Below, in pieces: positions 10,639-34,152 of a stretch of DNA of 64,000 nucleotides (its first letter is position 1; the number at the start of each line of letters is the position of its first letter). Both the position numbers and the translations under genes were made by a program. The stretch spans positions 608,001 through 672,000 of the forward strand of contig CM000433.1 in assembly GCA_000165345.1 (NCBI GenBank), written 5' to 3'. Under the pieces are notes generated by a model that was not told the DNA's origin, did not search any database, and was given only the letters and a program-made list of their open reading frames with translations.

Positions 10639-11768
10639 TTTTTATGATTAATCTCACTACTATAATAAATTAAAATTCTTGTAAAAAAAAAAAAATAAAA
10701 TAATAGACTTGTATTTTATTTTTTCACCTTGCCTAACTAGTAGAGTTGTATGTATTTTTTATTTGAATGAATTTTTTTCTTCTCAATTTGTACACCTTAT
10801 CTTGTGTATATATAAATATATTTATTTATTTAATATACACTATTTATTATATTAATTAAATACAAATTATATTATTTTATTATTATGGGGGTTATTGTCC
10901 ATTTTAAATCTAAGTACATGTAGATATTCTTTAGACGCATAGATTCAAATACTTGCTGTCTATTTTTTGGCGCCCATCCCCTCAATATTATTTATTATAA
11001 AGTAAATACTAAAAACTGATAAAAAAAAAATTTTAAAAAATTTAATGCGATAGTAGAATTGTTATGATAAATGAATAATTAACTGAAGATTAGAGATTTA
11101 TTAGAGACTCATATAGAATTATTCAATGATTTTTCCTTTTTATATTTGTTATTCTACTTTTATATTCAATGTATGGTTACATTTTTTTTTGAGAATCTTT
11201 TGTGTGCGAATTATTTCTTCAATTAATTATTCATTATTCATCTAAACTTCTTGATAAAATTTTTGTTTAACATTTTACACTAATTAGAAAAGTATTTGAA
11301 AATGGTTGGCGCGCAAATAAGCAATATTAAATATAAATATATAAATTGGGAATAAACAAAGCGATAAAGAGAAATAAATATATAATTTTCTCTTTGGAAT
11401 TCAAAGGTCTATCGTAGGTTCTCTTTTTGGGGGTATTTTGAGGTATGGTCAGAAGGATTTGACGAATAAAGGCTATTTTCTTTGCAATTTTCATTGTTTG
11501 TTCTATTAATTCTGTTCGAGTAAAAAATCAGAATATTTTTATTAAATGCAAAAAATTTGAATAAATTAAAAGAAAGCTTAATTTTATTGGATAATAAGTT
11601 GAATTGACTAGAAAATAACTCAAATTCTTCAAGAAAAGGTTATTTGCAATATCAGAGATTGGAAATGTAAAATGTAATTCTAGCTCAATAAAATACATTG
11701 ACTTTATAATTATATATATAAAGTGAATATTATATCAGGAAGATTATCTAATTTTATGGGCTTTCTAA

Positions 11769-13139: not shown

Positions 13140-13397
13140 GAATTTTCAGGTATTTATACTCATCGGAATAAATATTCCAAATAGTTTCTTCTATTAATTA
13201 AATTATATTAACAATGTTTAAAGCAATTTTATTAAGTGCTTAATATTAACATACAGAAGAAGAAGAAAAAAGAAAAGGTTATATTTTAATCTAGTCAAAA
13301 TTTTTAGGTAGTTGTTATTAAAATTAACTTAATATTTGAATTTTACTAATTTTGTTTACTGCAAAATAATAGATTATACTATAGATAAAGGTAGTAA

Positions 13398-14030
13398 TCA
13401 TATACCATCAATTATCCATGAATTTACATGTACCCAAGCATTGCAGCCACCAGTATTAACTATTCCCAGAGTAAAGTACTTGAAGTTACAGGTTTCAGCG
13501 ATATCTGTCATTCCGGAATATTTGAAAATATTATCAGTTCTAATCAAAGTGGTTGCTGGAGCTGTTTGCATGTTTTCTGAAGTATATCCTGTCGTTTCAA
13601 AAGCAGATACAATAGTAGAAGGGTCTTTAACCAAACTTGTATTACTTGAACATAAATCATCACAAATCTTTATAAATTTTAAAGTGAGTGAATTCGCTGA
13701 ACATGTACAGTTATAAGAATCACAGTAAGTTTTTAGCGAAATATAGGAAGATTTACTTGAATTACGGATAATCTTGGCATAACTAGATAAGTCAAATTGG
13801 ATTAGTAAAGTATTATCCCAACCTGTACTGAAAGCAGACGTAATTGGAAGATACATAACGTTTCCTGAATATTCCCAGCAAAAGTTTGAGCTTGTATTGA
13901 TCATATTCTGTGTCACAAACATGCTTGTTGGAGTAATTGTGGCGCAACTTGTTCGCTCATTTCTTAATATTCCAGAAATACCAACTATTATTATTAATTT
14001 CCGAAGAAGCCATTCTATTCTCTTTCTCAT
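13398..14030 (-). CDS. Hypothetical small secreted-type protein (N-terminal signal peptide, 10 Cys, Ser/Thr/Asn-rich)
   Basis: 210-aa ORF starting MRKRIEWLLRKLIIIVGISGIL (basic n-region plus hydrophobic core, i.e. signal peptide). An E2F-like TTGGCGCCAA box lies ~155 bp upstream at 14182-14194. An alternative 126-aa ORF on the opposite strand (13336-13716) overlaps it, so strand assignment is not certain. Confidence 0.4.
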   Translation of the reverse strand: MRKRIEWLLRKLIIIVGISGILRNERTSCATITPTSMFVTQNMINTSSNFCWEYSGNVMYLPITSAFSTGWDNTLLIQFDLSSYAKIIRNSSKSSYISLKTYCDSYNCTCSANSLTLKFIKICDDLCSSNTSLVKDPSTIVSAFETTGYTSENMQTAPATTLIRTDNIFKYSGMTDIAETCNFKYFTLGIVNTGGCNAWVHVNSWIIDGI

Positions 14031-14181
14031 AATTATATTAGTTTATATTGGTCTTATCAAATATTATTCAGAGCAAATCTCTTTAAAATAGATCTGAGTT
14101 AATGTTTTATTTCATTCTACTTTTTTTTAACAATACTTTCTTTAAATATTAATAATATATTACATACAATACACATGCACT

Positions 14182-14194
14182 TTTTGGCGCCAAC
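14182..14194. promoter_or_regulatory. E2F-like box ttttggcgccaac in the divergent promoter (secreted-type protein gene / VPS13-like gene)
   Basis: Direct reading. A further copy gtggcgccaaat lies at 14546-14557, and a GCATGC box at 14531-14536. Confidence 0.45.
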
Positions 14195-15110
14195 AAAACT
14201 ATAGATCTTGGACGCCATTTAATTGTAAAAAACTTTAAAGGAGCATAGAGTAAGCTAAACAAATATTTTGGTCACAAGTTCGTTTATTCTTTTAATTTTT
14301 TCTATTTTTTCCCCTTCTTTAGTGAGTTTTTACATTGAAGGTAGTTTCAAATGCAATAAAAAACTATTTAAGAGCTAGTTCTTATAGCAATAAAAGTATA
14401 GATGAGAGAGAAAAAAATGATAGATTATATTTTATATATGTTTAATTCATAGAAACATTAAAATTGGTAATCAAGATGAATTTTTTTTTTTAAATATATT
14501 CTTCATTTCCCAGAATATTAATTTAAATTTTGCATGCATTTATTAGTGGCGCCAAATGTATTTGATTGTAGTTATAAGTAAGGCAGGTAGTTTTGTGGGG
14601 GGGGGAGCGCGCGACTTAGGGGAGGAGGGGAAAAAGAATTTATGAGCTATATATTTACAGGCGAGAAATAAATAAGGTGCCAAAGTAAAGCAGAAATAAG
14701 TAATAAGTTTCAATAAAAGTGTCTATGTAAGGAAGAGAATCTGGTTTCAAATATTAAAGAAAATTCCAAAACATTGAACTAAGAGCTTCTTTGGAATTAA
14801 TTAAGAATAAATAATTGCGTGTGCAATTTTGCATGCAATTATTTTGGCAAATTATTTATTAATTAGCATATTATGTGGATAATATGACAATAGTAATTAG
14901 CTAAAAAGTGTGGGAGCTGAATTAATTCAAGAAATCATACAATTCGAAGTTTCTGAAATAAATTTAATAATCTAGTGACTAAAATAAAGAGAGAATGGAA
15001 CTTTGAATTAAGGACTAACGAATTTTACACAATAACAGTATCAACTGCAAACATAACAACATTATCTACTACTCTAATAATATTAATATTATTAAGTAAA
15101 TAAAACAAAA

Positions 15111-18100
15111 ATGTTTAGATATTGTAGTAAAATCACCGAAAGAGTGTTATACTCTACTATAAAGAATGTTATGAATAAGATATTCACAAATTTTGAACAA
15201 GAGCAACTTTCCATCTCACTTTTAGGTGGAAGCTTGGAAATAAGGGATTTAAATATTAGAAAAGAACTTTTTGATGATTTATCTTTCCCAATCAGTTTAA
15301 GTGATGGAATTGTTGGAAAAGTTAATATTGATGTTATCTGGAGAAAAATATTTACCCAAGAGTTTGTGAAAATCACCTTGGATGATGTATATGTTATTTT
15401 TAATACTACTGATATGAAAAATTGGAATGTTGAAATGTTTGAAAAAAACTGGAAAAGGGTTAAAGCTAATCTATTAAAACAAGATGAATTTATTACTTTC
15501 TTAAAAAGTGCTATGGCTTCCAATTTTCTCAAACAAATTGGACACTTTTTTATATCAAAGATTCAGTTTGAAATTAAAAACATCAATTTTAGAATTGAAA
15601 ATTTGTTATTCCACTATATGAAGAGATTTGTTATTGGACTAAGTATTGATAAAATTTCCAGTCGAAATTGTAATGAATATTGGATTCCAGTAGATAAATC
15701 TGGAGGAGCCATTTTAGGCCGTAATACAGACAAAATTAATGGATCATCAACTTCAAATATAGCTTTTGATAATAATGATATAAGAAATTCAAAAGCATCA
15801 GGTAACTCTAATAACCATATATCATCACAGTCTATACCCAGAGAATTCTATCTAGATGAACAAGATGAAACTAGTATTGGATCTATTGTAGACAAATATA
15901 TGAAATTTATGGAGCCTAAATTAAAAATTAATAAAGGTTTTACTGGAGATTCTGAAGAAAATCTAGACAATATTGATGATATGAAAGAACAGGAGGATAT
16001 TTTAAAAAGTATTCTAGCAAAATCTAAATCCAAGATTAATGGAAATAAATCTATAGAAACTCATAATTTTTGGTCAAAGCTTAAAAAAAAGACTCCTCTT
16101 AGTTGGGTATGGAATAACCAAATTTACGATCAAAAATCTGAATCTTCAAAAAATCCTAATATTGAAGAGAAACAAATTGAGATAGACAATACAGAACTCA
16201 ATAGTGGGATATGGCATAACAATGATCTAATTTTTCCCTACCCTAATGGAATGGGAGTCAATAGAGAAGTCATTGATAACTTTATCACATCCAAGGAAAA
16301 CAGAGAAATAGAAAAATACAATAAGGAAAAGTTTGTCCAACCTGATATTCTGGAAAAAAATGAAATCTTCCTCAAATCTTTCTTAATAGAGAACTTTTCT
16401 GTATATATTGATGAGATCTCACTTTATAACAAAACTATTAACTCTCCTTGGACCAATTTAAATAAATCAGAATCACAAATCTCTGATAGATTAAAATTCT
16501 TAAAAATTACTTCTGAAAAAGAATACGATACCCATGATTTTATTATTTATCCACATAAAATTGAATTAAGAGTAAGATTGGTACCTTGCATTATAAGATA
16601 TGATGAGAATATATATGCATCAGCTTTGAATGATAGGTTTTATATTCTATCTCAGGATGAAGATAACCAGATTATTCCATTAATATCATCTTATTTTATT
16701 TTTGATAATTTAAGTATTGATATCACAGAAAAACAATTAAAGTTATTGTTAGATTTTTTGGACTATACAGTATTTTTATATGGAGATTTTTCAGCAGGTT
16801 CATGTCCAAAGGATTTTCAGAACTTTCCAGATGAACAATCATGTATTAGGTATAGAATTTCATGGTTTGAGTTTCTTATAGGAAAAAGAGACAGAAGTTA
16901 CTCAGAAATTTGCAATATTGAAGACAGTTATAATGCTTATTCTTTAATAAAGCTCAGAAATGATGTTTATAAGTGTCTTAATTATTCAATATATCATTCA
17001 GTAAAGTCAATACTTAGCTTTGAACTAGATAAAAGTGATCAAGGAAATGTTTTAACTTTTCCTCTATTTGTAATCAAAGATCATGAAGAATGTAATTCAA
17101 GAGATAATCCTTTTGGAGGATTTCCAAACAAAAATAAGCCAGTATTGGTTAATGAATCTGATAAAATCAGTAATAATCTGGCTCAGTATATTATTTCTAA
17201 ATTAGTTATAGGACAGAATGATTATTACTCTGTAAGTTTGAATATGAATGATGATTCAACTGTTGGAGGAGGAAAAAAGGCAAATATTAATAATGAGATA
17301 AAGGAAACAGAAATCTATTTAAGTAAGGAGGAAATTCAATTAATTAAAGAGAATGATTTACTTGAAAGGATCAAAACAAAAACAAGCAGTTTGTTATCAC
17401 AGAATGAGTTACCTTTTGAGGTGGTAACTTTTGATCTGAATTCATACTTGAAAACTGAAAAGGATAATAATAACAAGAAATCTCATCATACTTCACCATT
17501 TATGCTAATACTGAATGCTCAAAACTTAACAATTAACTATTCGATCAATCTGAATGATCATAATCCATATTCTAAAAATAAGAAGAGCTTAAGATTTAAT
17601 TGTCTAGACTTGTATATACAATATAAGCTATTTACTGAATCAAAAAAGTTAGAGACGACAATAGCAGCAGAAAATTGTTATATGGTTGTTCACGATAACA
17701 AGGAAATAGGGAAAAATTTAATAAACAATTCAAATTGTTTACTTAGGATTGGACCAAATATCCAAAACTCAAAAGATTCTGACAAAGAAACTTTTAAACA
17801 ATTAACAAATCATCCAATATTACATAGATCAAGTATATATACCGGTACTACAATATGCAATAAAAGGCCTTATATGATGTTTACTGGAAATCAACGAAAT
17901 ATGAAGATTTACGAACCTTGTGATAAAATTGGAGGATTCTGGATAACTATTAGACTAAATAAAAATCCTTTCAGAACTACCCCAAAAGTGAATGTTTATG
18001 GAAAAACTTATGGTGAAATTTCCATTGTTGGATCATATGATGTATTTGAAAGGTTCTTAGATCCAATAGTTAATCATTTAAGCCCAAAACAAAGAAATAA

Positions 18101-21100
18101 TTACTTGAATAAAGCAAATAAGAATTTTGTTAAAGTAATTAAGAAAGGACAGAAATATATGACGGAGTTCTTCAATAATGGAGGAGCCTTTTCTAGTTTT
18201 TCTTATATGCCATGTCCCAACTATATATATTTAAATATAGATGCCAAAGCAAAACAGCTTTTGTTCTTTCCTATTCTAAAGAAGGATTCTAATAGCGAAT
18301 TATTGGAAAAATCTGATCGGAATGAAGCTTTTACAACTTTAAAAGAAAGACCAAATTCAATATTAAAATCAGCTGTTGATATGTTTTCAAGCATGATGGA
18401 ATATAAAATCAACAAAATTTCGAATTACTCTAGCATGTACTGTATTGATTGTGGTGAGATGCTTATTGAAACTTTCCAAAAGAATCCAAACAAGAAATTA
18501 GACAATTCTGGAGATAAATTCTTTACTGATAATATCAAGATAAGCTTTTCTAATATATCTCTATCGTTTATGAGACAGGTTAGATTAGTTGATCTTTATA
18601 TTTATAGAGATCTTGAAATGAAGGACAGAGGTACCGGCAATAATTTTCAAGATCCATGGGAAAAATTACAGGATTATGCTGTGAGATGTATACTAAAACC
18701 TCAAAGTTGGACATTTTCAGTTTACAAGTATAGAAGTAACTCAATAATTAATAAGAATAGTAGTATTAGACAATTTCTGGTAAATTTGGAGTTTTCTTTA
18801 AATTTAGCTCAAGATACGAGCGTGGAAATCAATACCACAGATATGGATCTTCACAATATTGCAGAAATTGTTAACTATTTTGTTAGCTTTTATTCTCAAT
18901 ACAATTTTATTAACTATTCTCAAGTTCTTATTAGTAATGTCGAAGAAGCGAATTCTATAAAAGGAAGAGAAAATTTTGATGAAAATACAAGATCTAGTGA
19001 TCAAAGCTGCTCAATTTCAAGCTTAGATTCTATGGAATCAATTATTGCAAACTCTAAATCAAAGACTAATAATGTTGAATTTCTAAAGAATATTGAGTTT
19101 ATATTTACAATACCAGAAACACATATTATTATTAAATCTGATAATGCTTATAGAGAAAGACAGGGAATGGCAATTAAAGATTTACCTGTGGTCAAGCTAA
19201 ATATCTCCTCAATCAAGGTATTTGTTTTGAATGGAGATCAAGATAGATCAGGAGTTTATGTATCTATTGCGGATGTATGTTTATCAGGAGGGATCTTGAA
19301 CAGAAATAGTAGGCTTTTAGTGCCTTTGTTTTGTCCAATTTCTGATACATTTTGCAATTTGAGTATTAAATTTTCTGATTTAAGCAATATTGACCGGTAT
19401 AAGGATTTTACAGGTATTTTATTGAATAACTCTAATATGAATATTCAAATTAATAACCCCAGATTCATTGTGTATTGGGATCTTTATGGAATTATTCTAA
19501 ATTGGATTATCACATTTTACTTTAAATCTATTGCAGTTCACCTTGAACGAAAAATAGATATCGACAAGATCAAACCAATTCTAGGTAAATGTAGTAATGA
19601 AGATATTCATAATCAAGATCAAAGGTATAATGAACAAGAATCTTTATTGGATAATGAAAATGAAGGAGCAATAGCGACTGAAAATCAATGTATTAGAAGC
19701 CAAATCATTCAGTTTCTTTCTATAATTAACCTCAAAATTCACTTTAAAGATGCTATTGCTATTCTCCCTTGCACACTTTCTGATCCAATTCAAGTAGTGA
19801 TCACAGAAATTGAGCCTTCATCATCTTCCAATTCAGCAGCTTCTTCATCAGCAGCATCTTCTGCTTCTGGACAAACTCAAACAAATTCTGGAACAGGATT
19901 TTCAGGAACTGGAACTTCCACTATTCCAACATTTTCAGCTTTTAAAGTTGATATTTTAAAATCTCTTTTAGCTGTAGTAAGATGTGATCTTACATACAGA
20001 TTTACTGGAGAATCTATATTTGAAATTGAGAACAAAAAAAATTCTCATAGTAAGCTAAAAAGCAATACAATAAAGAGTACTTTTGAACTATTTAAGGGAA
20101 GTATTCAATTTGGAAGGTCTCTGACTCCTAGGCATATTATGGAGTCTTTATGGAAGATCTCAAGAAGTCATAATATAGGAGGAAGGCATGGATTAATGAC
20201 TAGTGGAATTGGTATTTCAAGGATTGGTAGCGTTGGAGTAACCAATAATACCAATATTACACAAAATAAGATTGAAAATGTATCATCAATTGGAGGAAAG
20301 AATACAAATTTATTAACAACTCCCTCAAATGTAAATATTTCAAATACAAATTATGGCTCTGGAGGTATTGGAATAGGAGGAGGAGGAGGAGGAGTAGGAG
20401 TAGGAGTAGTAACAGGAGCTGGCCACTTCCAAAAGTCTACAGGTGAATCGAATATCACAAATTTGGTAAAGTCTTTTTATTTACCTAGAACTGATCAGGC
20501 TTTGAAAAGTTTGGTGGAAATTGAGAACTTGATAAATTCATATCAATGGCAATTCAATTTTGATATAGGATCTGGAGATGAAAAGAAAATTGTATCATCT
20601 TTAAGATTTAAGCTTGACTATATAATGAATCAATTGGAGATTAAGTCTGAAATGAGTAATGTAATCATGCTTTATGGATTTCTGGAGACAATAGAAATTA
20701 AGATGAACACAAATGAGCTTTTACATTTGATTAATGTAGTTGATATGTATTACAATTTAATTCAAAGTAATTTATTTGTGGACCTTTCCAATCAAAATAA
20801 CCAATTTGGAGGTGGTGGAGGAAGAGGATTTGATAACCAAGATACAATGTTAGATATTCAAAGTGATAATGGTTCCTCAAGATACAATATTGGATATAGT
20901 TACCAAGCAAATAGTAATTCTATGGGAAATAATGTCTCAATGATGAATTACTTGGTTTACTTATTTCCTTCAATTTTCCATACAACAATTACAAACTATA
21001 ACAAATTCATCTCACAGTTCAAATTAGAGGGATTGAAGATTCATTATATCCCAACAAATCTGACTTCCAATAAAGATGGAGTGCTTATAGATGTAACAGA

Positions 21101-24100
21101 GACTCAACTTGGTATTTATGTTAATGATGATGCTCCAGATAATGATTTCTTATTTAAAATCTTTCCTTTTTTATCAATATTTAATGAAGGATCTAAAAGA
21201 ATAATGGATGAATTTGAGATCAAAGACAAACTTATAATGATCCCAAGATTCTCAATAAGTAGTATCCCAATTTTACCAATTCTAACAAAATCCAAAGATA
21301 TTTTTTTTGGATTAATATTAGAATTCAAAAAAATATCAGTTTCAATATTTAATAATCAACTGATGTTTTATGACAATATTTTAGAACCTTTTGATGTAAG
21401 CTTATTATCAATATGCATGGGTAGTGATTCTAAAGCAAAAAAGTTATCAATAGAAAAATTGAATCCAAAAGTGAATATGGAGATTACTTGGATTAATTTG
21501 ACAATGACTCCAGAATATGTGAAATATTGGCTAAATTGCTTGGATAACTTTAATGAAGTTTATACAAATTATTATTTGAGACTTAATAATATAAATAAAC
21601 TTCTTTCTAGAAGAGTATTTCCTTATAACAATACTCTTGGAATTCTTTTACATGATCTTGAAAGTAAGATCATTGAAGAAGGTAAAGAAATAGAGGAAAA
21701 ATTTAAAGGTCTTTATTCAAGACCATTATCTGGAGAATGGGATGACCATGTATATAATTTTAATAATTCAAATAACAGTAAGCAAATAACAAGTGGTTTA
21801 GGAGAAAATTTGAGTAGCTCAAATTTTGTATTATATAATGATACAGGACAAATATTGGCCGTATTAATTCCATTATTTCTAGATGATAGTAAGAAAATGA
21901 AAGGTGGAGAGATAATTGAAACAAGAAACTTAGTTGATAATAATACAAATCAATTAAATTGCCAAGAATTACAAAACNAAGAANGANTAATTNNNANTCN
22001 ANATAGATNTGATAATTAATGGAAAAAGGAGAGGAAATTCGAATTTAATAAAAAGAAGAACTGAAAGACTCAGCTCAGAGAAATCAATTAAAGAAAGTAT
22101 ATTTGATAAGTTACTTGTAAGAAAGAAATCAGTNTTGGATACAAGTATTCTTTATTCACAAGAATCAGAAATGTCAAATATTTCAAATATAAGCAAAACA
22201 AATTACAATTTATATTATGTTTGGAGATATTTAAAACCAAATCACAAGATTTCATTCAGTAGAGACGAATATGGAAATAGTTACCCAATAGTGGTTAGAA
22301 TTCGAATCTTGAACGATGCTTTCGATCTTAATAATATTACAATGGATAAAGTTAATATGGAGGTAGTTTACCTTGGACTAAGTGAAAGAAATCAAGCAAG
22401 AATACCTTTACTAATAAAGACTGATATTATGAATAATCATTCATATTTGATTTCAATTTCCTCACGAGTTTTTATTTCAAACAATACAAGCAATATTATC
22501 AGATTAATACCAAATCCTAAGAATGTTGAAGATTTTCTAAATAATAATTTTTTCATCCCCCCAACAAGTAACAAACCAATTCTTGTTTCAAAATATAATG
22601 GAAAATTTTATGAGACTATTTCCAGAAAATTTATTGATAAAAATTATATTTCAAGTATATTAGACGAAGAAATTAATAAGACCAACTATAATAATAATGA
22701 TTATATTAATATTTTAATTCAATCAAATCTTTTCTGCAAGAATTTCAATCCTGACTTTTTTACACTCTATTTAAATCCAAATACGTATACATGCATGCCC
22801 ATGTGGACATCAATACCGGTATTGCATGCAGGCAGTAAGAATGACATGTTAAAATTCATTCCACTGCGCGCAGTAATAAATAATGTTTGGTTGGAGTCAG
22901 TGATAAGAAATAAAGAAGAAAGAAAAAATCGAGTTTCTATAAAAATACCAACGGATGATGAGAATAAGAATAAAGATATAGATGAAGAAGAGGAAGTCTT
23001 AAGGAATGATTTTTTAGTGGATAATGAGGAGTTATTGAGTGAATATTCGAGTATTTACAATCGTTTGAGTACATCTTCTGAGCAGATAGTGCAGAATAAA
23101 TGTTATAAGAAGTTGTTAACTACTAATACATCAGGAAAAAAGAAGAGTTATTATGGTTCAATCACAATTCAGTTAACAAGAAGATTACAATCGGGAGATT
23201 TGAATACAGAAAGTTTAGAGAATGGTATTGGTGGTGGTAGAAGTAGCAGTGTTAGTGGTAGTAATAATGGAAATAATAATACTGGTGAAAGTGGAGTTGT
23301 ATCAATATGTTCATCGATTTGTGAATATTTTCAAAAAGATACAAGAAGTAATCTCAACTCTTTCATGCTTGTTATTAAATTGGATATCCCTTTAATTATT
23401 GAGAATAATTTATTAATTCCTGTTCAGCTTTCATTCAATAAAGAAAAAGAAAAACATAGTAAAATAAATGGTTCAATAGAACATGTTCCAAATGATAGAG
23501 ATGAAATTAATAACAATGAAAGAATAAGTAATAATGGAAGTATCACGGGCCAAACACCAGGAAATAGTAATGATAGAATTGGGTCAGTTTTAGAAATATC
23601 AAAGACAGATAACCCTAGAGAAGATGAAGAAGGAAGTGAAGGAGAAGATGGAATTTCTGAGTTGATTGATAAAGTTATGTATATGAATGATCCCAATAGA
23701 TCAAATATTAATTTAAAAAATAATGAGAGAATTTTATTAGAATCTTTACCAACATCATTAAGTTTGAATATAATGGATATATCTTTTGGTAAGTTTTTTG
23801 GATTCTATAAATCTTCTCAGATTCAAATAAATTATAATTCAACAACAAAAGAACTTAATAAGGAAATTCTTGTTCCTTTAAAACTTAACAATGGATATAA
23901 GCTTATGCCAAATAATGATATTGCAAAAATTAGTGGTATTAGTGCTGTCATAACTAATGGATTTCTTCCAAGTTCTACTTGTATAAATGTTATGTTTGAA
24001 AATAATAGAACTGATTACATTTCCAAAGACTTTATTCCAAGACAAAAACAAGATTTTAATTATTATATGGATAATATTACCAGCCTAGATATCAAAACTT

Positions 24101-27100
24101 ATAATAAAGCTTATCCAGAATCTCAAGCTAATAATAATAATAATAACAATAATATTAATATTAATAATAATTTGGATATTTCTACTCCATGGAATGGATA
24201 TTATTGCAATGCATATAATACTTGTAAAATCAGATTAAATGTCTATGCTCCATTTTGGATTAATAATAGACAACATATACCAATTTATGTATTACAAAAG
24301 TCACAACTTTTCTCTAGATATAGATTAGGATCCAATGAATTTAAGATCCTTCCTACTAATAATGGAAAAAGTGATCTGGGTATTGCTTTAAATCCAGAAC
24401 TATCAAAGAAATGTCATTCTCCTTTTGTTCATATTGAAAGAGCTAATATTGTTGGAACTATTACTGTACCTTCAAAAAAATTCAATAATATTTCTCATTC
24501 TTTTGGTAATCATTTAAATTCAAGCTTGAGTAATCAAAATATTATTATAAGGGATATCATGTCAAGCAGTAATTTTGGATTAAAACTTGGATATTGTGTT
24601 ACAACTATTAACAATTTCTCCAAATCTCCAAATTTCATGATTAATATTTACAATAAATATATTATTGTTAATTATCATAACTTACCCATTTGGATACGAG
24701 AATCTAATAAGTTTGGAAGTTGGGTATATATTCCACCAAATATATCAATTCCTTTTCATCCATTGGATAGTAAAGATGTTTCTGTTATTGAAGTTACCTT
24801 TTTGGATCCAAAAATTATTGAAGAATATGAAAAAAAGTATCAAATCAATCTTGGTCATATTCCATATAAAACTTTACCTCTTTCTATTGACAATTTATAT
24901 GATATTCAAGTCAGATTAGTTTCTTCTTTGAATAATATTCCATTAATTAATACTAATAATAATCATGAAGAAAAAGAAAATATTAAAGATGATCAACTTG
25001 ATAATAAAATTGGAAATCTTCACTTTACTTACATTCTTTCATCAATTTCGATATATTCCATTAATTCATCAACATCTTACCAAATTAATATATATCCATC
25101 ACAAATCCCAGATTTTTCTATTGTTAATGAAACTCCATGTAATATATTTATTAGACAATTAAATACATCATCTTGGAATCATTTTAACCCTATTTCTGAC
25201 TCCAATTATGCTTTGTTGGATCCTTTTGGAGATCATATACTGGAACTTGTTGTTGGAGTTTCTTTAGGGAATTTTGATTTAGCTAAGATATCAAAAAAGA
25301 ATACAATATTACACAGCAAAAGAGATCATGGTAGTTTTGGACATCATAATAGACATCACCATCATCATAATTATCATCGTGATTCTATGGCATTTCATGA
25401 TTTCTCTTCAATACCTTTATATTTATATAATGATCACAGTATTCATTTCTGGTATAAAAATAAGAAAAATCTTAATTTAAATAAGGTATTAACTCATTCC
25501 AGACTTTTTATTCCTGAATATAATAGTATGCTTTATATTGTAATGCTTATTGAAAATGGTACAAGAGTTATCAACATTTCATTTGATAATACCTTATATA
25601 AAAGAAGACGTAATGAAATTAGAACTGTAAATCAAAGTAATACGCATATTAAGAGTAATAAATTCGATACTACTTCTCTTCAAATAAAAGGTTTAGATCG
25701 TGATGAAGATTCTGGGCATGATTTAAACCAAAGTAAGGTGAATATTAATAATATTATTGACTCTGATATTGGTCTTGAAGAAGGTAATGATGATCAGGAT
25801 CTTGTTCTTAATCACAGTGGAAAGTCTATCTTTAAGACATTGGGAAATAAATTAAAAAACCCAAAGAGATTTAGAAATAAAGATGAAAGATTAAATTATG
25901 GTGATGACGATGATGATGATGATGATAATAATAATAATGATAATGATGATATTGATGATCATTATGATCATGACGATGAAATTCAAGGAAATAATGAAAT
26001 AATTAATAGGGATAAGAGTAAATCTATTATTGGTGAAACGGGAGTAAACACTGAAACTAAAAATGTAAAATCATTTGAGACTATTAAAGATGGAGAAATT
26101 AATATTGATCAAAGTACAAGTATGATGACAGCAGTTTCTTCATTTGAGACAGAACTTTCACAATTCAGCAATTCCAATCTATCTAGAGTTTCTTCTGGTC
26201 AAAATTTATTCTTACTTGTTGACAAATTAAGACCTGAAACAAGAATATGTTTTGAAATGAATATATTATGTGATGGTTTTGGAGTATCATTCTTATCAAA
26301 TACTAATAAGGAAATTACTTATATGTCATTCCAGAAGATAAGCTTTAAGTTAGAGAATTCTAAAACAAATTATGAACAATTTCACATGAGATTCAGAATT
26401 ATTGAATTTCAATTAGATAACCATATTGCTACTTCAGCTGAAAATACAATAATTAGAAAAGCTACTCCAAATGAATTTCTAAGACTTTCAAAACTAAATA
26501 ATAAAAAGAAAGAAACAAAAAAAGATTCCAAATTAAGAAATGAATCTAATGAAATAAATGAAAATTCTAATAAGAATAAGGTTGTTAATGATGATTTTGA
26601 TGATGAATTAAATGGAATTGAAGATGATAGTTATTATGGAATAGAGTCATTACTTTCAGTTGGAGTTGTTACTTTAGGAGAAGTAATAAAGAAGAAGAGT
26701 GAGATTATTCATATTCATAATAAATTATTAGAATATATGACAGTTGGAACTCATGAAAATTTGGATTTATCAAGTAGAAATAAAAAAATCAAAGAAATAC
26801 TTTGTATGGAATCATTTCTTGATTTACAATTTAGTATTATTATGGATAATAGTAATGATATTTCTAATAAATATGGAAGTAATGGTGTAATAGAAATTCC
26901 TTATCTTTATTTTTGGATATATCCTTTAAGTATACATTTGGATATTGATACAATAAAGGAAATGGTTTCAATTTTAGAACAATTAATTAATAGAATACTT
27001 TCACCAACGGAAGAATTGGATAATACAAAATCAATATCTTTGCAAAGTTTACCTTTAGTAGAGAATCTTAAAAAAGTTTCTAAATATGTTTATATTCAAC

Positions 27101-30100
27101 TACTTTTAATGAATCCAATACAAATTTTATGTTCAACAAGTAAAAGTACTTGGAATATATCAGAAAACCAAAGTTCAAACTTTACTGACTATTATAATGT
27201 AATGAATAATATTGCTAAGATGGGTGAGAGTGAAGTTATTGTTCGTGAGATTCTTCCAATAATTCAAAGTTATGGAGTTGGAGGAGTTAACTTGAAATCA
27301 TTACTAAATTTTAAGATAATGAATAATTTTGGGAATCCATATTTGAATTTTAACAATGAATTAACTTTGAATAATGCTATTATAATGGAAAGGATTAATA
27401 TTGGAAATTTATGTCATAAGAATGATAAAAGTGAATGTATAAATGTTAATGTTTCAGAAAATGATATTAGAAAAGCTGCAATTACAGCTGAAGCTAGAGA
27501 TGTAGTTGGACAACTTGGAGATACTGGAAATATAACAAAGAATCATTTAGGTCAAGGTCAAATACAAAATAATTTAACAATGAATAAAACTGGAACTGAA
27601 TTTTTATTAAATATTTTACAATGGCTATCTTCAATGCCATTCTCAAATGTACCAATCGAATTTAAAGGAGTAATTAATGAATCTATATTTTTGGATAGTG
27701 AAAAATGTCTTGTTCAGATTGGAGATTTGTATAGACAACAAATATTTTCTCATATAGGTAAAATTATTGGATCTATTGACTTAATTGGTAATCCTATTGA
27801 TATTTATATTCTTGTTAAAGAAGGATTATTGGCATCCAAATATCATTTTGATCTTTATAAAAGAGCTACAAAGCTTAAAGAGAAGATTCAGGAGAATATG
27901 ACAAGAAAAAGGATTCAAAAGAATGAGAAACTTAATGGAAGGATAGATAGTAATAAAGGTATAGATTTAGATATAAATGATATGAAAAATTACAACAAAA
28001 ATATTGAAATGGTTGAGGTTGAGAATAAAAATTTGGAAAGTTTGATAGAAATTGGATCCTATGATAATATTGAAGATTATGACTATGATTCAATGAGTGA
28101 GGAAATAAATTATCAAACAGAGAAAGAACAGTTAGAAGAACAATATCAATATCTAATCGATTTTTGTTATGAATTAGATGAAAAACAAACAACAAAAACA
28201 TATGATGAAGAAGTTGATAATTTTTTGAAGAATAATAAATCATTAGTATTAAAATTGAATGCAGAATTAATGACTAAATTATTATTCTTTTCAATTAAAG
28301 AGATTATGGTTGGATTACATATTCTCGTAGGTACAGGAATTGCAGTAGCATCTCAAGTAATTGTAAGAATATCAAGTGCAATATTACATTTATTTGAAGT
28401 AACATATTTATTAGATCAAGATTGTTTAATGAGTATTTGGTATGGGACACCATTATTTATGAGCAGGTATATTGCAGATAATCCAAATAATTTGATAGAA
28501 GGTTTAATTACGGGATTATTACGTTCTTTATTAATAATAATGAGCATAATAATAAATTTTTGGCAGGTACCTAAAAAGATGTATAGACAGATGGGTAATT
28601 GGGGTATATTTTTGGGTATGTTTTTAGCAATAGTGAGAATAATACCAGCAGGCTTTGCATCTTTTCTCACTTTATTTTATGGTGTTTCTTCAGGTGTAGT
28701 TCAAAGTTTACGTACAAGAATCCCAGTAAGTCATATAAGAACTGTAAGGGTAATTTGTAATGGAAGTCCAATATTACCATATAACCCTCAACATAGTATT
28801 GCAACAATGATAATAGATTCATTAAAGTTAGTCAATGATGTGAAAGAATCAAATATAATAAATTTTATATCATTCAAGAATCAAACAAATAATTGTAGTG
28901 GATCATCAAGCTTAGATAATAATATTGATGATATAATATTGAATAATAAAAGACGACCTGTTGATAAGAGTGGGATAGAGAAGAAGTTTTTGATATATAA
29001 ATTATTGGAAAATAAGGAGGATTCAAGTTTAAGTCATTATAATGGTATAATTATATTTAAGGAAAGTATTTCATTATTAAAATCAGGAAAATTGGTTTGG
29101 ATGGTTCCATTGATAAATATTAATAGAATTAATCTATATTTGGTTTTAAATAATGGTAATAATAAATCAGAAGATAATAACAATAGATTAAATAGAAGAA
29201 GGATAAAGGATATATTTTATAGTAGAGAAAAGGGTAAGACAAGAAGGAATACAGCTTTTGAAAATTTGTTGGATATTGAGAGTCATTTCTTAGGTATTAA
29301 TAAGAAAGATGAAAATGAAAGTAATGGTGATGGCGATGAAAATAGTAATATTGGTGGGAATAATATCAATAATGAAAATATGGCAGTAAAAAATGATAAT
29401 AGTGGTAATAGTTTTAATAAGAGATCGTTTGAATTTCATCTTTTCATTAAACCATGGAGTTATTTGGATGATATAATAGAAAATAATACGAGTCAAAATA
29501 ACAAATCTTGTTTAAATAGAGCAAAAGGTGGAGGAACATTTGTAGGTGGTAGTTCAAAATTTTTTTCAAATAATAATAACAAAAGTTCTATTGGATTTGG
29601 TGATATAATTACAAAAAATGGAAGAAATCTTCTTCCACAATCAAAAAATATTATTTCAAAATTTAATAAATGGAAAGCTAAAAGAATGAGAAAGAAAGGA
29701 ATAAACTTATTTTCTGATAAGAAATTTATGAAACAATTATTATTACCAAAAAAAATTGAAAATGTTCATATTAATAAAAGATTTACTATGAATGAGAGAA
29801 GTCTTATAAACTTTAAGACAAATAACAAAGCTTTGAATGATTTAATAATTTCAATGGATGAGAATAGAGCAGTAATGACCAATTTTAATTTGAATAATAA
29901 TTCATTCATTTCATTTCCATCAATTACAATGTCATCATTTTCATCAGTAAATTTAGGTCAAAAGAGTTCTTCATCTTTTTCCAACGATAGCCAATTTCAA
30001 TTGAGTTCATGTAAACAATTTTCAGAAAAGATAATTTTTACAGTTGAAGATAAGGATGACGCAATTAAGGTATTTTCTGTTTTATCAAGGTATATCAATT

Positions 30101-30108
30101 CTGAATGA
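15111..30108 (+). CDS. VPS13: Giant VPS13-like bridge-like lipid-transfer protein (chorein-N family). Two ORFs (15111-22019 and 22135-30108) are joined across a run of ambiguous N bases.
   Basis: The N-terminus MFRYCSKITERVLYSTIKNVMNKIFTNFEQEQLSISLLGGSLEIRDLNIRKELFDDLSFPISLSDGIVGKVNIDVIW...VKITLDDVYVIF matches the chorein-N motif of VPS13 ([45 protein letters not shown]...IEDVYLL). The second ORF has no ATG, and its frame is open back to 22021 (GKRRGNSNLIKRRTERLSSEKSIKESIFDKLLVRKKSVLD). The break therefore coincides with the n characters at 21978-22134, and a frame shift is expected from the uncertain base count. The C-terminal region has amphipathic/hydrophobic helices consistent with an ATG_C-like region. 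His and Asp runs and a poly-Asn region are present. Confidence 0.7.
21978..22134. other. Run of ambiguous bases (n) / low-quality assembly stretch inside the giant VPS13-like gene
   Basis: Literal n characters at 21978-22010 and 22134. The ORF frame changes from 0 to 1 across the stretch, and the apparent stop at 22017-22019 lies inside it. Confidence 0.9.
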
Positions 30109-30491
30109 AATTTCTTTTTTTTTTTTTGTAAATATTTTACTCAAAAAGAATTAATTGGCGTAATAATACAATGGTAGTAAAATTTCCACCTTTTTTTCTT
30201 AATTTTTATTTTAATTTAATAATAATTTTCAAAAACAAATGTTGCATGCATGCAATCATTAATTTTTAACTTACGTGGAAACACGTAAGCAAAAAAAAAT
30301 TGCGCAAAATTTGCACATGAATGCCGGTATAGGAAAAAATTAGTGGTAGAATTAATTAATTATTTAATAAAAGAATTTTTTTTTTTTTTAATTAATTGAA
30401 TTAAATTAAAGTAAATAATAATAGAACAAAATATCTAATTTTTAATTATTTTATACTCAGATTTAAGATAGATTGAAAGAAGGAAATAATA

Positions 30492-32159: not shown

Positions 32160-34152
32160 ACAAATTTTTTGAAACTATGTACTCAGCATACAGATTTGAA
32201 TAATCTTTAATTAATTCTTTTAATTCCATCTTAGAATTTCCATGGAAATTAATTCTAGATATAGAACTAGAATCAGAATTGGAATCATTTTCTGAATAGA
32301 AGCTTGAACTTGGACTAGAAATAGAGCTTTGGCTGGAACATGATTTGGATCTGGGTTCTGACTTGGACCTAGACCTGGAGTGTGATTTGGATTTGGATTT
32401 GGATCTGGGCTTGGATCTGGATCTGGACTTGGAGTATGATCTGGACTTGGAGTATGATCTGGATCTGGATCTGGATCTGGATCTGGATCTGGATCTGGAT
32501 CTTGATCTTGATCTTGATCTGGACCTGGATCTGGATTTTGACTTTGAACAAGAACTAGAGCTTTTCTTTTCAAGCCTGGAATTTTGAATATTTAGCTTTG
32601 TATTAATTTTGGGTACCTTTTTGAAACTAGTATTATCTTCATTAATGGTACAACTATTAGCTTTATTGGGTACTAAATTGTTGGCTTTCTTTCTTGTAAT
32701 GCTTCTTCCCTTTCGCTTTGAATTGCCTTTTCTTATGTAGATCCTAGATTCTGTCTCAGACTGTGAACCTAGTTCTGATTCTAATTTACTAACCAAACCC
32801 CTAATCTTATTCATTTTTAACTCTCCATCTTTTTTAAATGATATTCTTGGTTCAGAAGCAGACCTAGACTTGGTTCTGGATTCTGATTTAAATCCAGATC
32901 TTGATCCAGACCTCGATCTAGACCTAGAACTAGAGCTGGAACTGGAGCTGGAGCTGGGACTAGAACTGGGGCTGGATTTAAGTCTTCCTTTCTGTTCACT
33001 ATTCCCAAGCTTATGTTTAACTCTTTTAATGCTAATGCTAACATCAGTATCAATGTAACTGTTTCCTTCATCATTATAACTGTATTCTGCTTTATCTTCA
33101 GTCTTTTCATGATTTTTCTCCTGTTCAAATTTGATATGATTATTAGCACCAGAATTGCTACTAGTATGAGGCCTAAGGCCACGGTTTTGTTCAAAACTTC
33201 TATTATTCATAGAATTATTTGCATTTGCCATTGGATATTGATCTTTAAGTTTACATGGATTATTGTTTTCCAATTTTGAATAGAAACAATTTTCATTACT
33301 TGGATTCAAATTTATTGAACTTGAAAGTATTTCATCCAAATCTGTTATGCTAATTTTATTTCTCAAATTAATGATTTGCATTCTTTTTGGATCAATCAAC
33401 AAAATTATAGGCTCCCTCAATAACTTGGACTCTTGCATAATTATTGATTTTAATTCGCCATTTTCACATTCAAAAGATTTACAATTACCATTACGAGTCT
33501 CAAATTGTTGGTATTCTAAATCCATACTTTTATTCATATTCATTTCCATATCCAGTCCAATATCAACTTCCAAATTATCTTTAAAGAAAGGACTCATATT
33601 TCTTAAATATTCTTTCAATCTTTGACATAATTGAAAGTAAGATTTGCAGATTCTATTATTACTTTTAAAATCAAAAGAAAGATAATCTCCATTTTCTCCA
33701 CTAGTATAAACTTTCTTCTCAAAATCCATAATTGAATTGCTCATACAATCCATACTAGTTTTCATTACATTTGTAAAATTTTCTAATTTATCCATCATCT
33801 TCTTCAATATCATCTTTCTTTCATTCATTAATTCATCCACCTTTCTTTCTACTACTTTTATTGCAATCTCTTTCACATATAGTCCATCCCTTCCTATACT
33901 TTCATTCAAACCTTGCAAACTTTCTTTCCATAATCCTAAACGATCCTTCATTATTTCCATCTCTTTCATTGAATCATCATACATTTTAATATTCATTAGC
34001 AAATCATTTCTGCTCATTTTATCATCTTCAATATTATCCAACTCTTCTTCAATCCTTCTTTGCTCATTTATATATTTGTTATAGTCAAGCCCTCCTGTCC
34101 CAAATTGACCATTTTCATCTTCCTCTTCATCTAATTGATATCTATTATTCAT
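32137..34152 (-). CDS. Arg/Ser-repeat (RS-domain) protein with an N-terminal coiled-coil-like region
   Basis: 671-aa ORF. It has a long RS dipeptide array (SKSKSRSRSRSRSRSRSRSRSRSRSRSRSRSYSKSRS...) encoded by (GATCTG)n-type repeats at ~32341-32556, and a second SRS/GSRS block at ~32866-32995. The N-terminal 280 aa are charged and helical. The 3' end overlaps the DHH gene by ~23 bp. Confidence 0.6.
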   Translation of the reverse strand: MNNRYQLDEEEDENGQFGTGGLDYNKYINEQRRIEEELDNIEDDKMSRNDLLMNIKMYDDSMKEMEIMKDRLGLWKESLQGLNESIGRDGLYVKEIAIKVVERKVDELMNERKMILKKMMDKLENFTNVMKTSMDCMSNSIMDFEKKVYTSGENGDYLSFDFKSNNRICKSYFQLCQRLKEYLRNMSPFFKDNLEVDIGLDMEMNMNKSMDLEYQQFETRNGNCKSFECENGELKSIIMQESKLLREPIILLIDPKRMQIINLRNKISITDLDEILSSSINLNPSNENCFYSKLENNNPCKLKDQYPMANANNSMNNRSFEQNRGLRPHTSSNSGANNHIKFEQEKNHEKTEDKAEYSYNDEGNSYIDTDVSISIKRVKHKLGNSEQKGRLKSSPSSSPSSSSSSSSSSRSRSRSGSRSGFKSESRTKSRSASEPRISFKKDGELKMNKIRGLVSKLESELGSQSETESRIYIRKGNSKRKGRSITRKKANNLVPNKANSCTINEDNTSFKKVPKINTKLNIQNSRLEKKSSSSCSKSKSRSRSRSRSRSRSRSRSRSRSRSRSRSYSKSRSYSKSRSRSKPRSKSKSKSHSRSRSKSEPRSKSCSSQSSISSPSSSFYSENDSNSDSSSISRINFHGNSKMELKELIKDYSNLYAEYIVSKNLSKIEAYY
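32341..32556. repeat. Hexanucleotide-type microsatellite (GATCTG / GATCTT)n encoding the RS dipeptide array
   Basis: Visible tandem gatctggatctggatctg... run. The opposite-strand spurious ORFs (DLDLDL..., IQIQIQ...) are artefacts of the repeat. Confidence 0.8.

What the first reader, a model, noticed from the sequence alone, without database searches (positions are those of the whole stretch)
22791..22830. Dense promoter-type motif cluster embedded in the middle of the giant VPS13-like coding sequence
The 40-bp stretch catgcatgcccatgtggacatcaataccggtattgcatgca contains GCATGC, CATGTGGAC, the palindrome ATACCGGTAT and TGCATGCA back to back. These are the same words that define intergenic promoters elsewhere in the window. 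Yet the stretch lies inside an uninterrupted reading frame (it encodes ...YTCMPMWTSIPVLHAGS...), ~700 bp downstream of the N-gap. A local GC-rich patch (ccactgcgcgcag) follows. This could be an internal promoter producing a C-terminal VPS13 isoform, or an antisense or otherwise cryptic promoter. It could also be evidence that the 5' portion (22135-22790) is really UTR or intron of a separately transcribed downstream gene.
Basis: seen in the sequence. Interest (0 to 1): 0.55.

Follow-up and report, generated by a model that had tools for sequence, protein, structure and literature searches.

The report
Conserved promoter-word cluster inside coding sequence
In the middle of a 15-kb Cryptosporidium parvum gene, 16 codons for a conserved peptide also spell four promoter-type DNA words, and related species keep the same unusual codon choices, so this is probably a regulatory DNA site hidden in coding sequence, though no transcript from it has been shown.

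Summary
The window is C. parvum Iowa II chromosome 5.

The "N-gap" split of that gene is a sequencing artefact. So the reading that 22135-22790 is UTR or intron is refuted.

The cluster is not chance:
- TGCATGCA, CATGTGGAC and ATACCGGTA are 16- to more than 50-fold over-represented in the window and lie mostly in non-coding DNA.
- Spelling them here needs rare codons (CCG 2%, CCC 7% of Pro). The joint probability given the peptide is about 3e-6.
- None of 1000 synonymous reshuffles of all 47.6 kb of coding sequence reproduced it.

The peptide C[ML]P[ML]Wx[SC]IP[VL] is kept in all seven species compared. The DNA words are kept only in the intestinal clade: complete in C. hominis and nearly so in an unnamed GC-rich species, part in C. 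meleagridis and C. ryanae. C. andersoni and C. muris have none. Synonymous sites between C. parvum and C. ryanae are saturated, yet this window ranks first or second of about 4,000-5,000 for synonymous conservation.

Best reading: a conserved intragenic transcription-factor-site module, possibly an internal or antisense promoter. No lncRNA is catalogued there, and no conserved downstream start codon exists.

The parts
22790..22830 (.). The 41-nt cluster of four promoter-type words, written in 14 codons of the host gene (the 16 codons compared span 22789-22836).
22790..22799 (.). CATGCATGCC. It contains GCATGC (22793-22798) and matches the AP2_1 consensus BGCATGCAH on the minus strand (GGCATGCAT). 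Codons are ACA TGC ATG CC.
   Evidence: Kept in C. hominis, C. meleagridis, L004 and C. ryanae. Lost in C. andersoni and C. muris. Consensus taken from PMC3734150.
22800..22808 (+). CATGTGGAC, spelled by ccC ATG TGG AC. TGTGGAC is forced by the residues [ML]-W-T. The leading CA needs the rare CCC codon plus Met.
   Evidence: The word is 5 copies against 0.10 expected in the window. It is kept in C. hominis and L004. It reads AATGTGGAC in C. meleagridis and TTTGTGGAC in C. ryanae.
22813..22822 (.). The palindrome ATACCGGTAT, spelled by ATA CCG GTA T. It uses the rarest Pro codon (CCG, 2%).
   Evidence: Kept exactly in C. hominis, C. meleagridis and C. ryanae, where it is the only ACCGGT in the 16-kb locus. 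It reads ATACCGGTGT in L004.
22823..22830 (.). TGCATGCA, the palindromic core bound by ApiAP2 domains. It is spelled by tTG CAT GCA and is the only copy inside an ORF in the window.
   Evidence: Kept in C. hominis and L004, where it is followed by the E2F-like GGCGGGAAA. It reads TGCATGTA in C. meleagridis and is lost in C. ryanae. Binding data are from PMC3734150 and PMC4117751.
22864..22873 (.). The GC-rich palindrome CTGCGCGCAG (codons CTG CGC GCA G). Probably incidental.
   Evidence: Kept only in the three closest species. L004 has CTT CGG GCG G and C. ryanae has CTT AAA GTA G. It does not match the E2F core [CG]GCGC[GC].
15111..30108 (+). The host gene. It is one continuous ORF of about 4,950 codons for a chorein/VPS13-like protein. 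The cluster lies 51% of the way along it.
21978..22134 (.). A low-quality stretch of the Iowa II draft, with scattered Ns and one extra base. It falsely splits the gene into two ORFs.

Best explanation
The cluster is a nucleotide-level cis-element written into the synonymous positions of a conserved peptide, that is, dual-use codons. The peptide C[ML]P[ML]Wx[SC]IP[VL] is old and constrained as protein. In the ancestor of the intestinal Cryptosporidium clade its codon choices were fixed so that the DNA also spells two TGCAT/GCATGC sites and the two words CATGTGGAC and ATACCGGTAT. GCATGC sites are the target of several C. parvum ApiAP2 domains. The other two words accompany TGCAT sites in real bidirectional promoters of this chromosome.

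The most likely mode of action is binding of these transcription factors in the middle of the 15-kb gene. There they would act as an intragenic promoter or enhancer-like landing site, probably stage-specific and orientation-free because the main words are palindromes.

Shown: the words, their improbability, their conservation at synonymous sites, and their use in true promoters. Inferred: factor binding and any transcript arising from it.
For: - Word statistics: TGCATGCA 9 copies against 0.57 expected, 8 of 9 outside ORFs; CATGTGGAC 5 against 0.10; ATACCGGTA 5 sites against about 0.
- CATGTGGACGCA and ATACCGGTA are conserved between C. parvum and C. meleagridis in the divergent amylase/SNF2 and zuotin/Brr2 promoters.
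- Rare codons are needed: CCG 2%, CCC 7%, TGC 26%. The joint probability given the peptide is about 3e-6. None of 1000 synonymous reshuffles reproduced the cluster.
- Synonymous sites between C. parvum and C. ryanae are saturated: 50.5% identical codons against 49% expected. Yet C. ryanae keeps ACA TGC ATG CC and ATA CCG GTA T. From its own codon usage the probability is about 0.003.
- The GC-rich species L004 keeps three of the four words exactly and the fourth as ATACCGGTGT, although its codon preferences are reversed. This argues for selection on nucleotides, not on codon rarity.
- The combined synonymous-conservation score ranks this window 1st of about 4,970 for windows of 8-20 codons. 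An alternative z statistic ranks it 2nd of about 3,800.
- In each orthologous locus TGCATGCA occurs only upstream of the gene, downstream of it, and at this internal site.
- Isolated copies of the same words elsewhere in the gene (17839, 19393, 20777) are not kept at synonymous sites. They serve as an internal control.
- A published catalogue finds E2F and AP2_1 motifs within 100 bp upstream of C. parvum lncRNAs, most of which are antisense to protein-coding genes. So this motif type is already linked to transcripts that start within or beside coding sequence (PMC7840661).
Against: - No transcript evidence is available. The lncRNA catalogue of PMC7840661 lists nothing over CPATCC_0024650 or its presumed second half, CPATCC_0024660. 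None of the stored lncRNA sequences contains the cluster words.
- Sporozoite ATAC-seq peaks were reported to lack AP2 motifs (PMC11761812).
- There is no conserved in-frame start codon within about 1.2 kb downstream.
- C. meleagridis has already lost two of the four exact words, one of them by an Ala-to-Val change. C. andersoni and C. muris have none.
- Other windows of the gene without promoter words score nearly as high for synonymous conservation, for example 27601 and 18591. The effective p-value is therefore only about 0.005-0.01.
- CATGTGGAC and ATACCGGTA have no known binding factor.
Confidence: 0.5

Rival explanations
1. Coincidence plus shared ancestry. A conserved peptide rich in C, M, P, W, H and A happens to be encoded by codons that spell promoter words, and nothing acts on the DNA words themselves.
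For: - TGTGGAC is forced by the residues [ML]-W-T, and part of GCATGC by C-M-P.
- Two-kind co-occurrences arise in 38% of reshuffles.
- C. meleagridis has lost two exact words.
- Other synonymous-conservation islands without such words exist in the gene.
Against: - The joint codon probability is about 3e-6, and 0 of 1000 reshuffles reach the observed cluster.
- The rare TGC and CCG codons recur in C. ryanae despite saturated synonymous divergence (p about 0.003). They also recur in L004 despite opposite codon bias.
- The window ranks first or second for synonymous conservation at a location specified in advance.
Confidence: 0.2
2. An mRNA-level element. The palindromes let the transcript fold into a hairpin (CAUGCAUGCC pairing with GGUAUUGCAUG), or they are bound by an RNA-binding protein. 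This would affect translation, stability or localisation of the giant mRNA.
For: The alignment fold predicts a hairpin of about 13 bp across the cluster. The single-sequence fold has z = -1.88, and 8 of 200 shuffles fold as well. The C. meleagridis change C to U keeps a G-U pair.
Against: There is no compensatory change in the cluster hairpin, and the covariation term over the whole predicted structure is unfavourable (+0.92). C. ryanae has lost the whole 3' arm (4 pairs broken) while keeping the 5' GCATGC and ATACCGGTAT. The fold z-score is marginal. No Rfam family matches.
Confidence: 0.1
3. A conserved rare-codon cluster that slows the ribosome at a structurally critical segment, for co-translational folding. 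The promoter-like words would be a by-product.
For: In C. parvum the stretch 22789-22875 holds CCC, CCG, TGC, GGC, CTG and CGC, all minor codons. It is the second most GC-rich 90-nt patch of the gene. The peptide is the best-conserved block in the region.
Against: In L004 the codon bias is reversed: CCG is 37%, CCC 28% and TGC 63% there, so they are common codons. The same nucleotides are kept anyway, so what is conserved is sequence, not rarity. C. andersoni and C. muris keep the peptide with common codons.
Confidence: 0.08
4. A relic of a gene fusion, or two separate genes. On this view the cluster is the former or current promoter of a downstream gene, and the sequence upstream of it is UTR or intron.
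For: The Iowa II draft and the GenBank annotation of CP044418 split the locus into two genes of 2294 and 2645 aa.
Against: - The ORF is continuous in finished and independent assemblies, so the split is a one-base artefact.
- It is a single gene in C. hominis, C. meleagridis, C. ryanae, C. andersoni and C. muris.
- The upstream stretch evolves as coding sequence.
- The cluster encodes the most conserved peptide of the region, not a linker, and that peptide predates the words.
Confidence: 0.02

Closest known systems
AP2_1 cis-element (BGCATGCAH / TGCATGCA). In vitro it is bound by the C. parvum ApiAP2 domains cgd2_3490, cgd1_3520, cgd5_4250 and cgd8_3230 (PMC3734150, PMC4117751).
   Same: Both GCATGC sites of the cluster match the published consensus on the minus strand (GGCATGCAT and TGCATGCAA). 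The motif is strongly enriched in non-coding DNA in this window, as published.
   Different: The published element is defined in upstream non-coding regions, and coding sequence was deliberately excluded from those searches. This copy is in the middle of a 15-kb ORF. Occupancy by any AP2 protein is unknown.
Promoters of C. parvum antisense lncRNAs (Li et al. 2021, PMC7840661).
   Same: E2F and AP2_1 motifs lie within 100 bp upstream of lncRNAs, most of which are antisense to protein-coding genes. Many such promoters appear bidirectional.
   Different: Catalogued antisense RNAs concentrate at the 3' ends of genes. None is listed for this gene, and this site is mid-gene.
Dual-use codons and synonymous constraint elements: transcription-factor sites or other functional DNA/RNA elements inside coding exons, described in mammals and yeast (from general knowledge).
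   Same: The codons specify a conserved peptide and at the same time a conserved DNA word set. Synonymous divergence is locally suppressed.
   Different: Here the inference rests on six comparison species and one gene. There are no footprinting or ChIP data.
Intragenic or cryptic promoters that give N-terminally truncated isoforms, known in yeast, plants and animals (from general knowledge).
   Same: Promoter-type motifs lie inside a long transcription unit.
   Different: There is no mapped 5' end and no conserved downstream start codon within about 1.2 kb.

Membership tests
AP2_1 (TGCATGCA-type) ApiAP2 cis-regulatory element | The sequence matches the consensus BGCATGCAH. | tested here: met
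   The minus-strand readings GGCATGCAT (22792-22800) and TGCATGCAA (22822-22830) both fit. The consensus is and the sequence.
AP2_1 (TGCATGCA-type) ApiAP2 cis-regulatory element | The element lies in the non-coding region upstream of a gene. | tested here: not met
   It lies in frame in a continuous ORF, 7.7 kb from the start codon and 7.3 kb from the stop.
AP2_1 (TGCATGCA-type) ApiAP2 cis-regulatory element | The element is bound by a TGCAT-recognising AP2 domain in vivo. | not testable with these tools
   This needs ChIP or CUT&RUN. Only in-vitro PBM specificities are published.
Intragenic (internal sense or antisense) promoter | A transcript 5' end maps at or near the element. | tested here: inconclusive
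   No expression data can be read here. The published lncRNA table and FASTA contain nothing over this gene. That pipeline could not detect a sense internal transcript, and the stored files are truncated.
Intragenic (internal sense or antisense) promoter | The element contains the factor-site words used by bona fide promoters of the same genome. | tested here: met
   The same words occur in the divergent promoters at 47804-47915 and 58473-58535 and are conserved in C. meleagridis.
Intragenic (internal sense or antisense) promoter | For a protein isoform: a conserved in-frame start codon lies downstream. | tested here: not met
   The Met at 22846 is V, E and N in the other species. The first Met shared by C. 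parvum, L004 and C. ryanae is at 24067.
Synonymous constraint element / dual-use codons | Synonymous divergence is locally lower than the background of the gene. | tested here: met
   Rank 1 of about 4,970 windows by log-likelihood ratio, for windows of 8-20 codons and q of 0.7-0.95. Rank 2 by z score. The background is saturated against C. ryanae.
Synonymous constraint element / dual-use codons | The overlapping non-coding function has been identified. | not testable with these tools
   This requires binding, 5'-end or recoding experiments.
VPS13 / bridge-like lipid-transfer protein (the host gene) | A chorein / VPS13 N-terminal domain is present. | tested here: inconclusive
   The window ORF1 gives no Pfam hit. 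The orthologue P0041 hits VPS13_N at E = 7e-20 and 70.8 bits, below the 80-bit cutoff. UniRef names the C. andersoni and C. muris orthologues 'Chorein N-terminal domain-containing protein'. A paper quotes CPATCC_0024650 as 'Chorein/VPS13-like protein'.
VPS13 / bridge-like lipid-transfer protein (the host gene) | The C-terminal VAB/SHR-BD, APT1, ATG_C and PH modules are present. | tested here: not met
   No Pfam family is found in ORF2, P0041 or P0043. Remote homology by structure was not tried.

The most novel reading that the evidence does not exclude
Long Cryptosporidium genes may carry conserved mid-gene modules of promoter-type factor sites. In the 15-kb VPS13-like gene the module is written into codons, 51% of the way along. 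In the roughly 7.5-kb Brr2 gene it sits in an unusually long and highly conserved intron, about 55% of the way along. In a genome where such sites otherwise recur every 2-3 kb in intergenic DNA, these modules could keep long transcription units accessible, re-start transcription, or organise chromatin or replication. If so, gene length itself would impose a regulatory architecture, and the codons would be selected for it.
Probability: 0.1. Interest if true: 0.7.

Novelty: new member of a known kind. Interest (0 to 1): 0.5.

Why it matters
Gene regulation in Cryptosporidium is poorly understood. All published motif searches there deliberately excluded coding sequence.

This case gives a concrete and cheaply testable example of promoter-type words held in place inside an ORF by selection on synonymous sites. 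Synonymous recoding of 16 codons would separate the DNA function from the protein function.

It also adds two strongly over-represented, conserved promoter words (CATGTGGAC[G] and ATACCGGTA[T]) that are missing from the published C. parvum motif tables read here.

Practically, it shows that the two-gene annotation of this locus, still present in the IOWA-ATCC GenBank record, comes from a one-base error in the 2004 draft.

Tried and rejected
- Word-indexed protein searches with the giant ORF (2657 aa, then 422 aa) found nothing, not even the protein itself. Low-complexity words probably flood the candidate list. Orthologues were reached instead through neighbouring genes and the exhaustive representative search.
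- I first assumed that GenBank tags CPATCC_0023xx map to CryptoDB CPATCC_0023xx0 and concluded from that there was no lncRNA. That mapping was wrong. PMC12446620 gives CPATCC_0024650 at chr5 644,924-651,805, which equals L009 13343-20224. The check was repeated with the right identifiers.
- An attempt to add species through the downstream DHH gene only returned the same unnamed GC-rich organism.
- Rfam found nothing in the window.
- The RNA-hairpin idea found no covariation support.
- The GC-rich patch as an E2F site was rejected. It does not fit [CG]GCGC[GC] and is not conserved beyond the closest species.
- The gene-fusion relic and separate-gene readings were rejected.
- Literature searches for ACCGGT or TGTGGAC as Cryptosporidium motifs returned only primers and unrelated text.
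- The ATAC-seq and long-read paper has no supplementary tables held here, so peak coordinates could not be checked.
Full report
**Where the window comes from**

Six window ORFs match Cryptosporidium parvum Iowa II proteins exactly. Their orthologues are found in C. hominis, C. meleagridis and C. tyzzeri. The window is therefore C. parvum chromosome 5. It is about 28% G+C, gene-dense and almost free of introns.

**The observation**

- The string CATGCATGCCCATGTGGACATCAATACCGGTATTGCATGCA is present.
- It lies in frame as ACA TGC ATG CCC ATG TGG ACA TCA ATA CCG GTA TTG CAT GCA GGC AGT, which is TCMPMWTSIPVLHAGS.
- The GC-rich patch is at 22861-22873 and includes the palindrome CTGCGCGCAG.

**The host gene and the N-gap**

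The window shows two ORFs, 15111-22019 and 22135-30108, in different frames. Scattered Ns separate them.

- Alignment with the finished IOWA-ATCC chromosome (CP044418, locus L009), two independent short-read C. parvum assemblies, C. hominis and C. meleagridis shows one extra base and several Ns in the window. All the other sequences are in frame.
- Translation of those sequences runs through without a stop for the full 2,676-2,686 codons held.
- The gene is called as a single product of 4990 aa in C. hominis, 4928 in C. meleagridis, 4785 in C. ryanae, 4597 in C. andersoni and 4599 in C. muris.
- The GenBank record of CP044418 still lists two genes of 2294 and 2645 aa. The first ends without a stop codon. 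That looks like an annotation carried over from the draft.
- Between the N region and the cluster, C. parvum and C. meleagridis differ by 25 synonymous and 15 non-synonymous codon changes, with no indels. The rest of the gene shows the same pattern, 291 to 207.

The reading that 22135-22790 is UTR or intron of a separate gene is therefore refuted.

'VPS13-like' is reasonable but weakly based. Pfam finds nothing in the window ORFs. One orthologue hits VPS13_N at E = 7e-20 but below the curated cutoff. UniRef and a recent paper call the protein chorein/VPS13-like.

**Are these promoter words?**

Yes.

- TGCATGCA occurs 9 times against 0.57 expected from dinucleotide shuffles. Eight copies lie outside ORFs, which make up 26% of the window. 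One of those eight lies in a Brr2 intron (see Side observations).
- TGCATGCA is the published AP2_1 motif (BGCATGCAH). In vitro it is bound by cgd2_3490 and three other C. parvum ApiAP2 domains (PMC3734150 and PMC4117751).
- CATGTGGAC occurs 5 times against 0.10 expected. ATACCGGTA occurs at 5 sites against about 0 expected.
- These two words co-occur with TGCAT sites in the divergent amylase/SNF2 promoter (47804-47915) and the zuotin/Brr2 promoter (58473-58535). Degenerate copies lie upstream of the AAA-ATPase gene (9507-9575) and between the giant gene and the DHH gene (30243-30330).
- They are conserved in C. meleagridis within intergenic DNA that is otherwise 83-89% identical.
- I did not find them in the published motif tables or in a full-text search.

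**Is the coding cluster more than chance?**

Spelling the words requires particular synonymous choices: TGC (26% of Cys codons), CCC (7% of Pro), ATA-CCG-GTA (CCG is 2% of Pro), and TTG-CAT-GCA.

- Given the peptide and the window's codon usage, the joint probability is about 3e-6.
- I resampled the synonymous codons of all 47.6 kb of coding sequence 1000 times. No 41-nt window reached the observed 3 word kinds with 4 hits, and only one reached 3 kinds.

**Orthologues**

DNA for the whole gene or the relevant half was obtained for:
- C. hominis (L002) and C. meleagridis (L001);
- an unnamed Cryptosporidium-like organism from run SRR31860986, whose copy of the gene is 50% G+C (L004; 71% amino-acid identity to the query);
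- C. ryanae (L005; 57%);
- C. andersoni (L007; 36%) and C. muris (L014).

The peptide FTLYLNPNTYTCMPMWTSIPVL is the best-conserved block in its neighbourhood. The core C[ML]P[ML]Wx[SC]IP[VL] is kept in all species. The protein constraint is therefore older than the DNA words. That rules out a promoter relic trapped by a gene fusion.

| Species | State of the cluster at the DNA level |
|---|---|
| C. hominis | Identical to C. parvum |
| C. meleagridis | CCC to CCA and GCA to GTA, so the exact CATGTGGAC and TGCATGCA are lost; CATGCATGCC and ATACCGGTAT are kept |
| L004 (GC-rich) | CATGCATGCC, CATGTGGAC and TGCATGCA kept; has ATACCGGTGT; adds an E2F-like GGCGGGAAA directly after TGCATGCA |
| C. 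ryanae | CATGCATGCC, TGTGGAC and ATACCGGTAT kept; the last is the only ACCGGT in its 16-kb locus; the 3' TGCATGCA is lost |
| C. andersoni, C. muris | None of the words |

In every locus TGCATGCA occurs only upstream of the gene, just downstream of its stop, and (in C. parvum, C. hominis and L004) at this internal site.

**Synonymous constraint**

- Between C. parvum and C. ryanae, codons at identical degenerate residues are the same 50.5% of the time, against 49.0% expected from codon usage alone. Synonymous sites are thus saturated.
- Under independence, C. ryanae's own usage gives about 0.003 for ACA, TGC, ATA, CCG and GTA together.
- In L004 the corresponding product is about 4e-5. Its codon bias is reversed: CCG is 37% and CCC 28% there.
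- A sliding log-likelihood score combining both comparisons puts the cluster first of about 4,970 windows at 8, 12, 16 and 20 codons. The result is robust to the assumed conservation parameter from 0.7 to 0.95.
- An alternative z statistic ranks it second (z = 5.3), behind 27601 (z = 5.7).
- Other islands score nearly as high, so I rate the effective significance at about 0.005-0.01, not more.
- As an internal control, isolated copies of the same words elsewhere in the gene (ATACCGGTA at 17839, ACCGGT at 19393, TGTGGAC at 20777) are not kept at synonymous sites in L004 or C. ryanae.

**What it probably is**

The evidence fits a nucleotide-level element overlapping the codons.

- Selection on codon rarity (a translational pause) is unlikely. 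The same nucleotides are kept in L004, where those codons are common. The gastric species keep the peptide with common codons.
- An RNA hairpin across the cluster is predicted. It has no compensatory support and a marginal z-score (-1.88). C. ryanae has lost the 3' arm while keeping the other words.
- What survives in each species is separate words, not a structure. This is what turnover of factor-binding sites looks like.

I therefore favour a cluster of transcription-factor sites, made of TGCAT-type AP2 sites plus two words whose factors are unknown.

Whether it fires transcripts is open.

- In favour: a published catalogue finds AP2_1 and E2F motifs within 100 bp upstream of C. parvum lncRNAs, most of which are antisense to protein-coding genes, and many promoters there are bidirectional (PMC7840661).
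- Against: that catalogue lists no lncRNA over CPATCC_0024650 or its presumed second half, CPATCC_0024660. None of its stored sequences contains the cluster words.
- Against: sporozoite ATAC peaks were reported to lack AP2 motifs (PMC11761812).
- Against: no in-frame Met shared by the intestinal-clade species lies within about 1.2 kb downstream. A conserved C-terminal protein isoform is therefore not supported.

**Side observations that bear on the interpretation**

- A second coding-embedded pair of the same words lies in the last 160 nt of the Clp1 gene (40287-40330, minus strand). The GC-rich species has both ATACCGGTAT and CGTCCACATGCAAA there. C. parvum and C. meleagridis have each lost one of them through a non-synonymous change.
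- The Brr2 gene has a 435-nt intron (about 62852-63286) carrying two E2F-like words and a TGCATGCA. The intron is about 90% identical to C. meleagridis and lies about 55% of the way along the gene.
- Together with the present cluster (51% of the way along a 15-kb gene), this suggests, on only two cases, that long genes may hold mid-gene regulatory modules.

**Verdict**

- The separate-gene reading is refuted.
- The promoter readings are neither shown nor excluded.
- The best-supported statement is that this is a conserved, clade-specific intragenic site cluster using dual-use codons.
- It is a new example of a known kind of element. It is moderately interesting and directly testable by 5'-end mapping and synonymous recoding.

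Noticed in passing
window 21978-22134; L009 (CP044418.1) 13343-20224 and 20402 onward: The Iowa II draft has Ns and one extra base here, which falsely splits the giant gene. The finished IOWA-ATCC sequence is continuous, yet its GenBank record still annotates two genes (2294 and 2645 aa). The first ends without a stop codon.
   Followed up: yes
window 47804-47915, 58473-58535, 9507-9575, 30243-30330: Two words, CATGTGGAC(G) and ATACCGGTA(T), are strongly over-represented (5 against 0.10, and 5 sites against about 0 expected). They co-occur with TGCAT sites in promoters and are conserved in C. meleagridis. They are absent from the published C. parvum motif tables I read. They are candidate new cis-elements with unknown factors.
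   Followed up: partly
window 40287-40330 (Clp1 CDS, minus strand, last ~160 nt); L011 ~11320-11370; L013 9530-9567: This is a second coding-embedded pair of the same words. On the Clp1 sense strand the GC-rich species has AATACCGGTATGGAAGACATGCAA...CGTCCACATGCAAA in full. C. parvum and C. meleagridis have each lost one word by a non-synonymous change. The site lies next to a convergent gene pair, where antisense RNAs usually start, but none is catalogued.
   Followed up: partly
window ~62463-62685 and ~62852-63286 (Brr2/SNRNP200 introns); L012 16821-17704: There are two GTAAGT...TAG introns. The second is about 435 nt, long for this genome. It carries TTCCCGCC, TGCATG, TGCATGCA and GGCGGGAA. 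Both introns are about 90% identical to C. meleagridis, as high as coding sequence. There is no Rfam hit. It could be an intronic promoter or an embedded non-coding RNA.
   Followed up: partly
L004 and L013 (Logan run SRR31860986): An unnamed Cryptosporidium-like organism is syntenic with this region (giant gene, DHH, Clp1) and about 71% identical in protein. It is far more GC-rich (50% in the giant gene, 43% over 12 kb) than the other Cryptosporidium orthologues fetched here (26-28% G+C in this gene).
   Followed up: no
window 30243-30254; L004 15978; L005 15454; L007 14828; L014 14830: A TGCATGCA site 30-140 bp downstream of the giant gene's stop codon (upstream of the DHH gene) is present in every species examined, including the gastric clade. 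It appears to be a deeply conserved promoter site.
   Followed up: partly
window 27601-27650, 18591-18640, 17121-17170, 28957-28995: These are other islands of unusually high synonymous-codon conservation in the giant gene, for example FLLNILQWLSSMPFSN with z = 5.7. They carry no recognisable promoter words and are unexplained.
   Followed up: no
window 32280-32571 and 34867-35135: These are in-frame tandem repeats in two minus-strand genes: a 6/12-nt Ser-Arg-type repeat, and thirteen 15-nt units (GAGAAGCAGAAAATG-like on the coding strand). They are ordinary low-complexity coding repeats.
   Followed up: no
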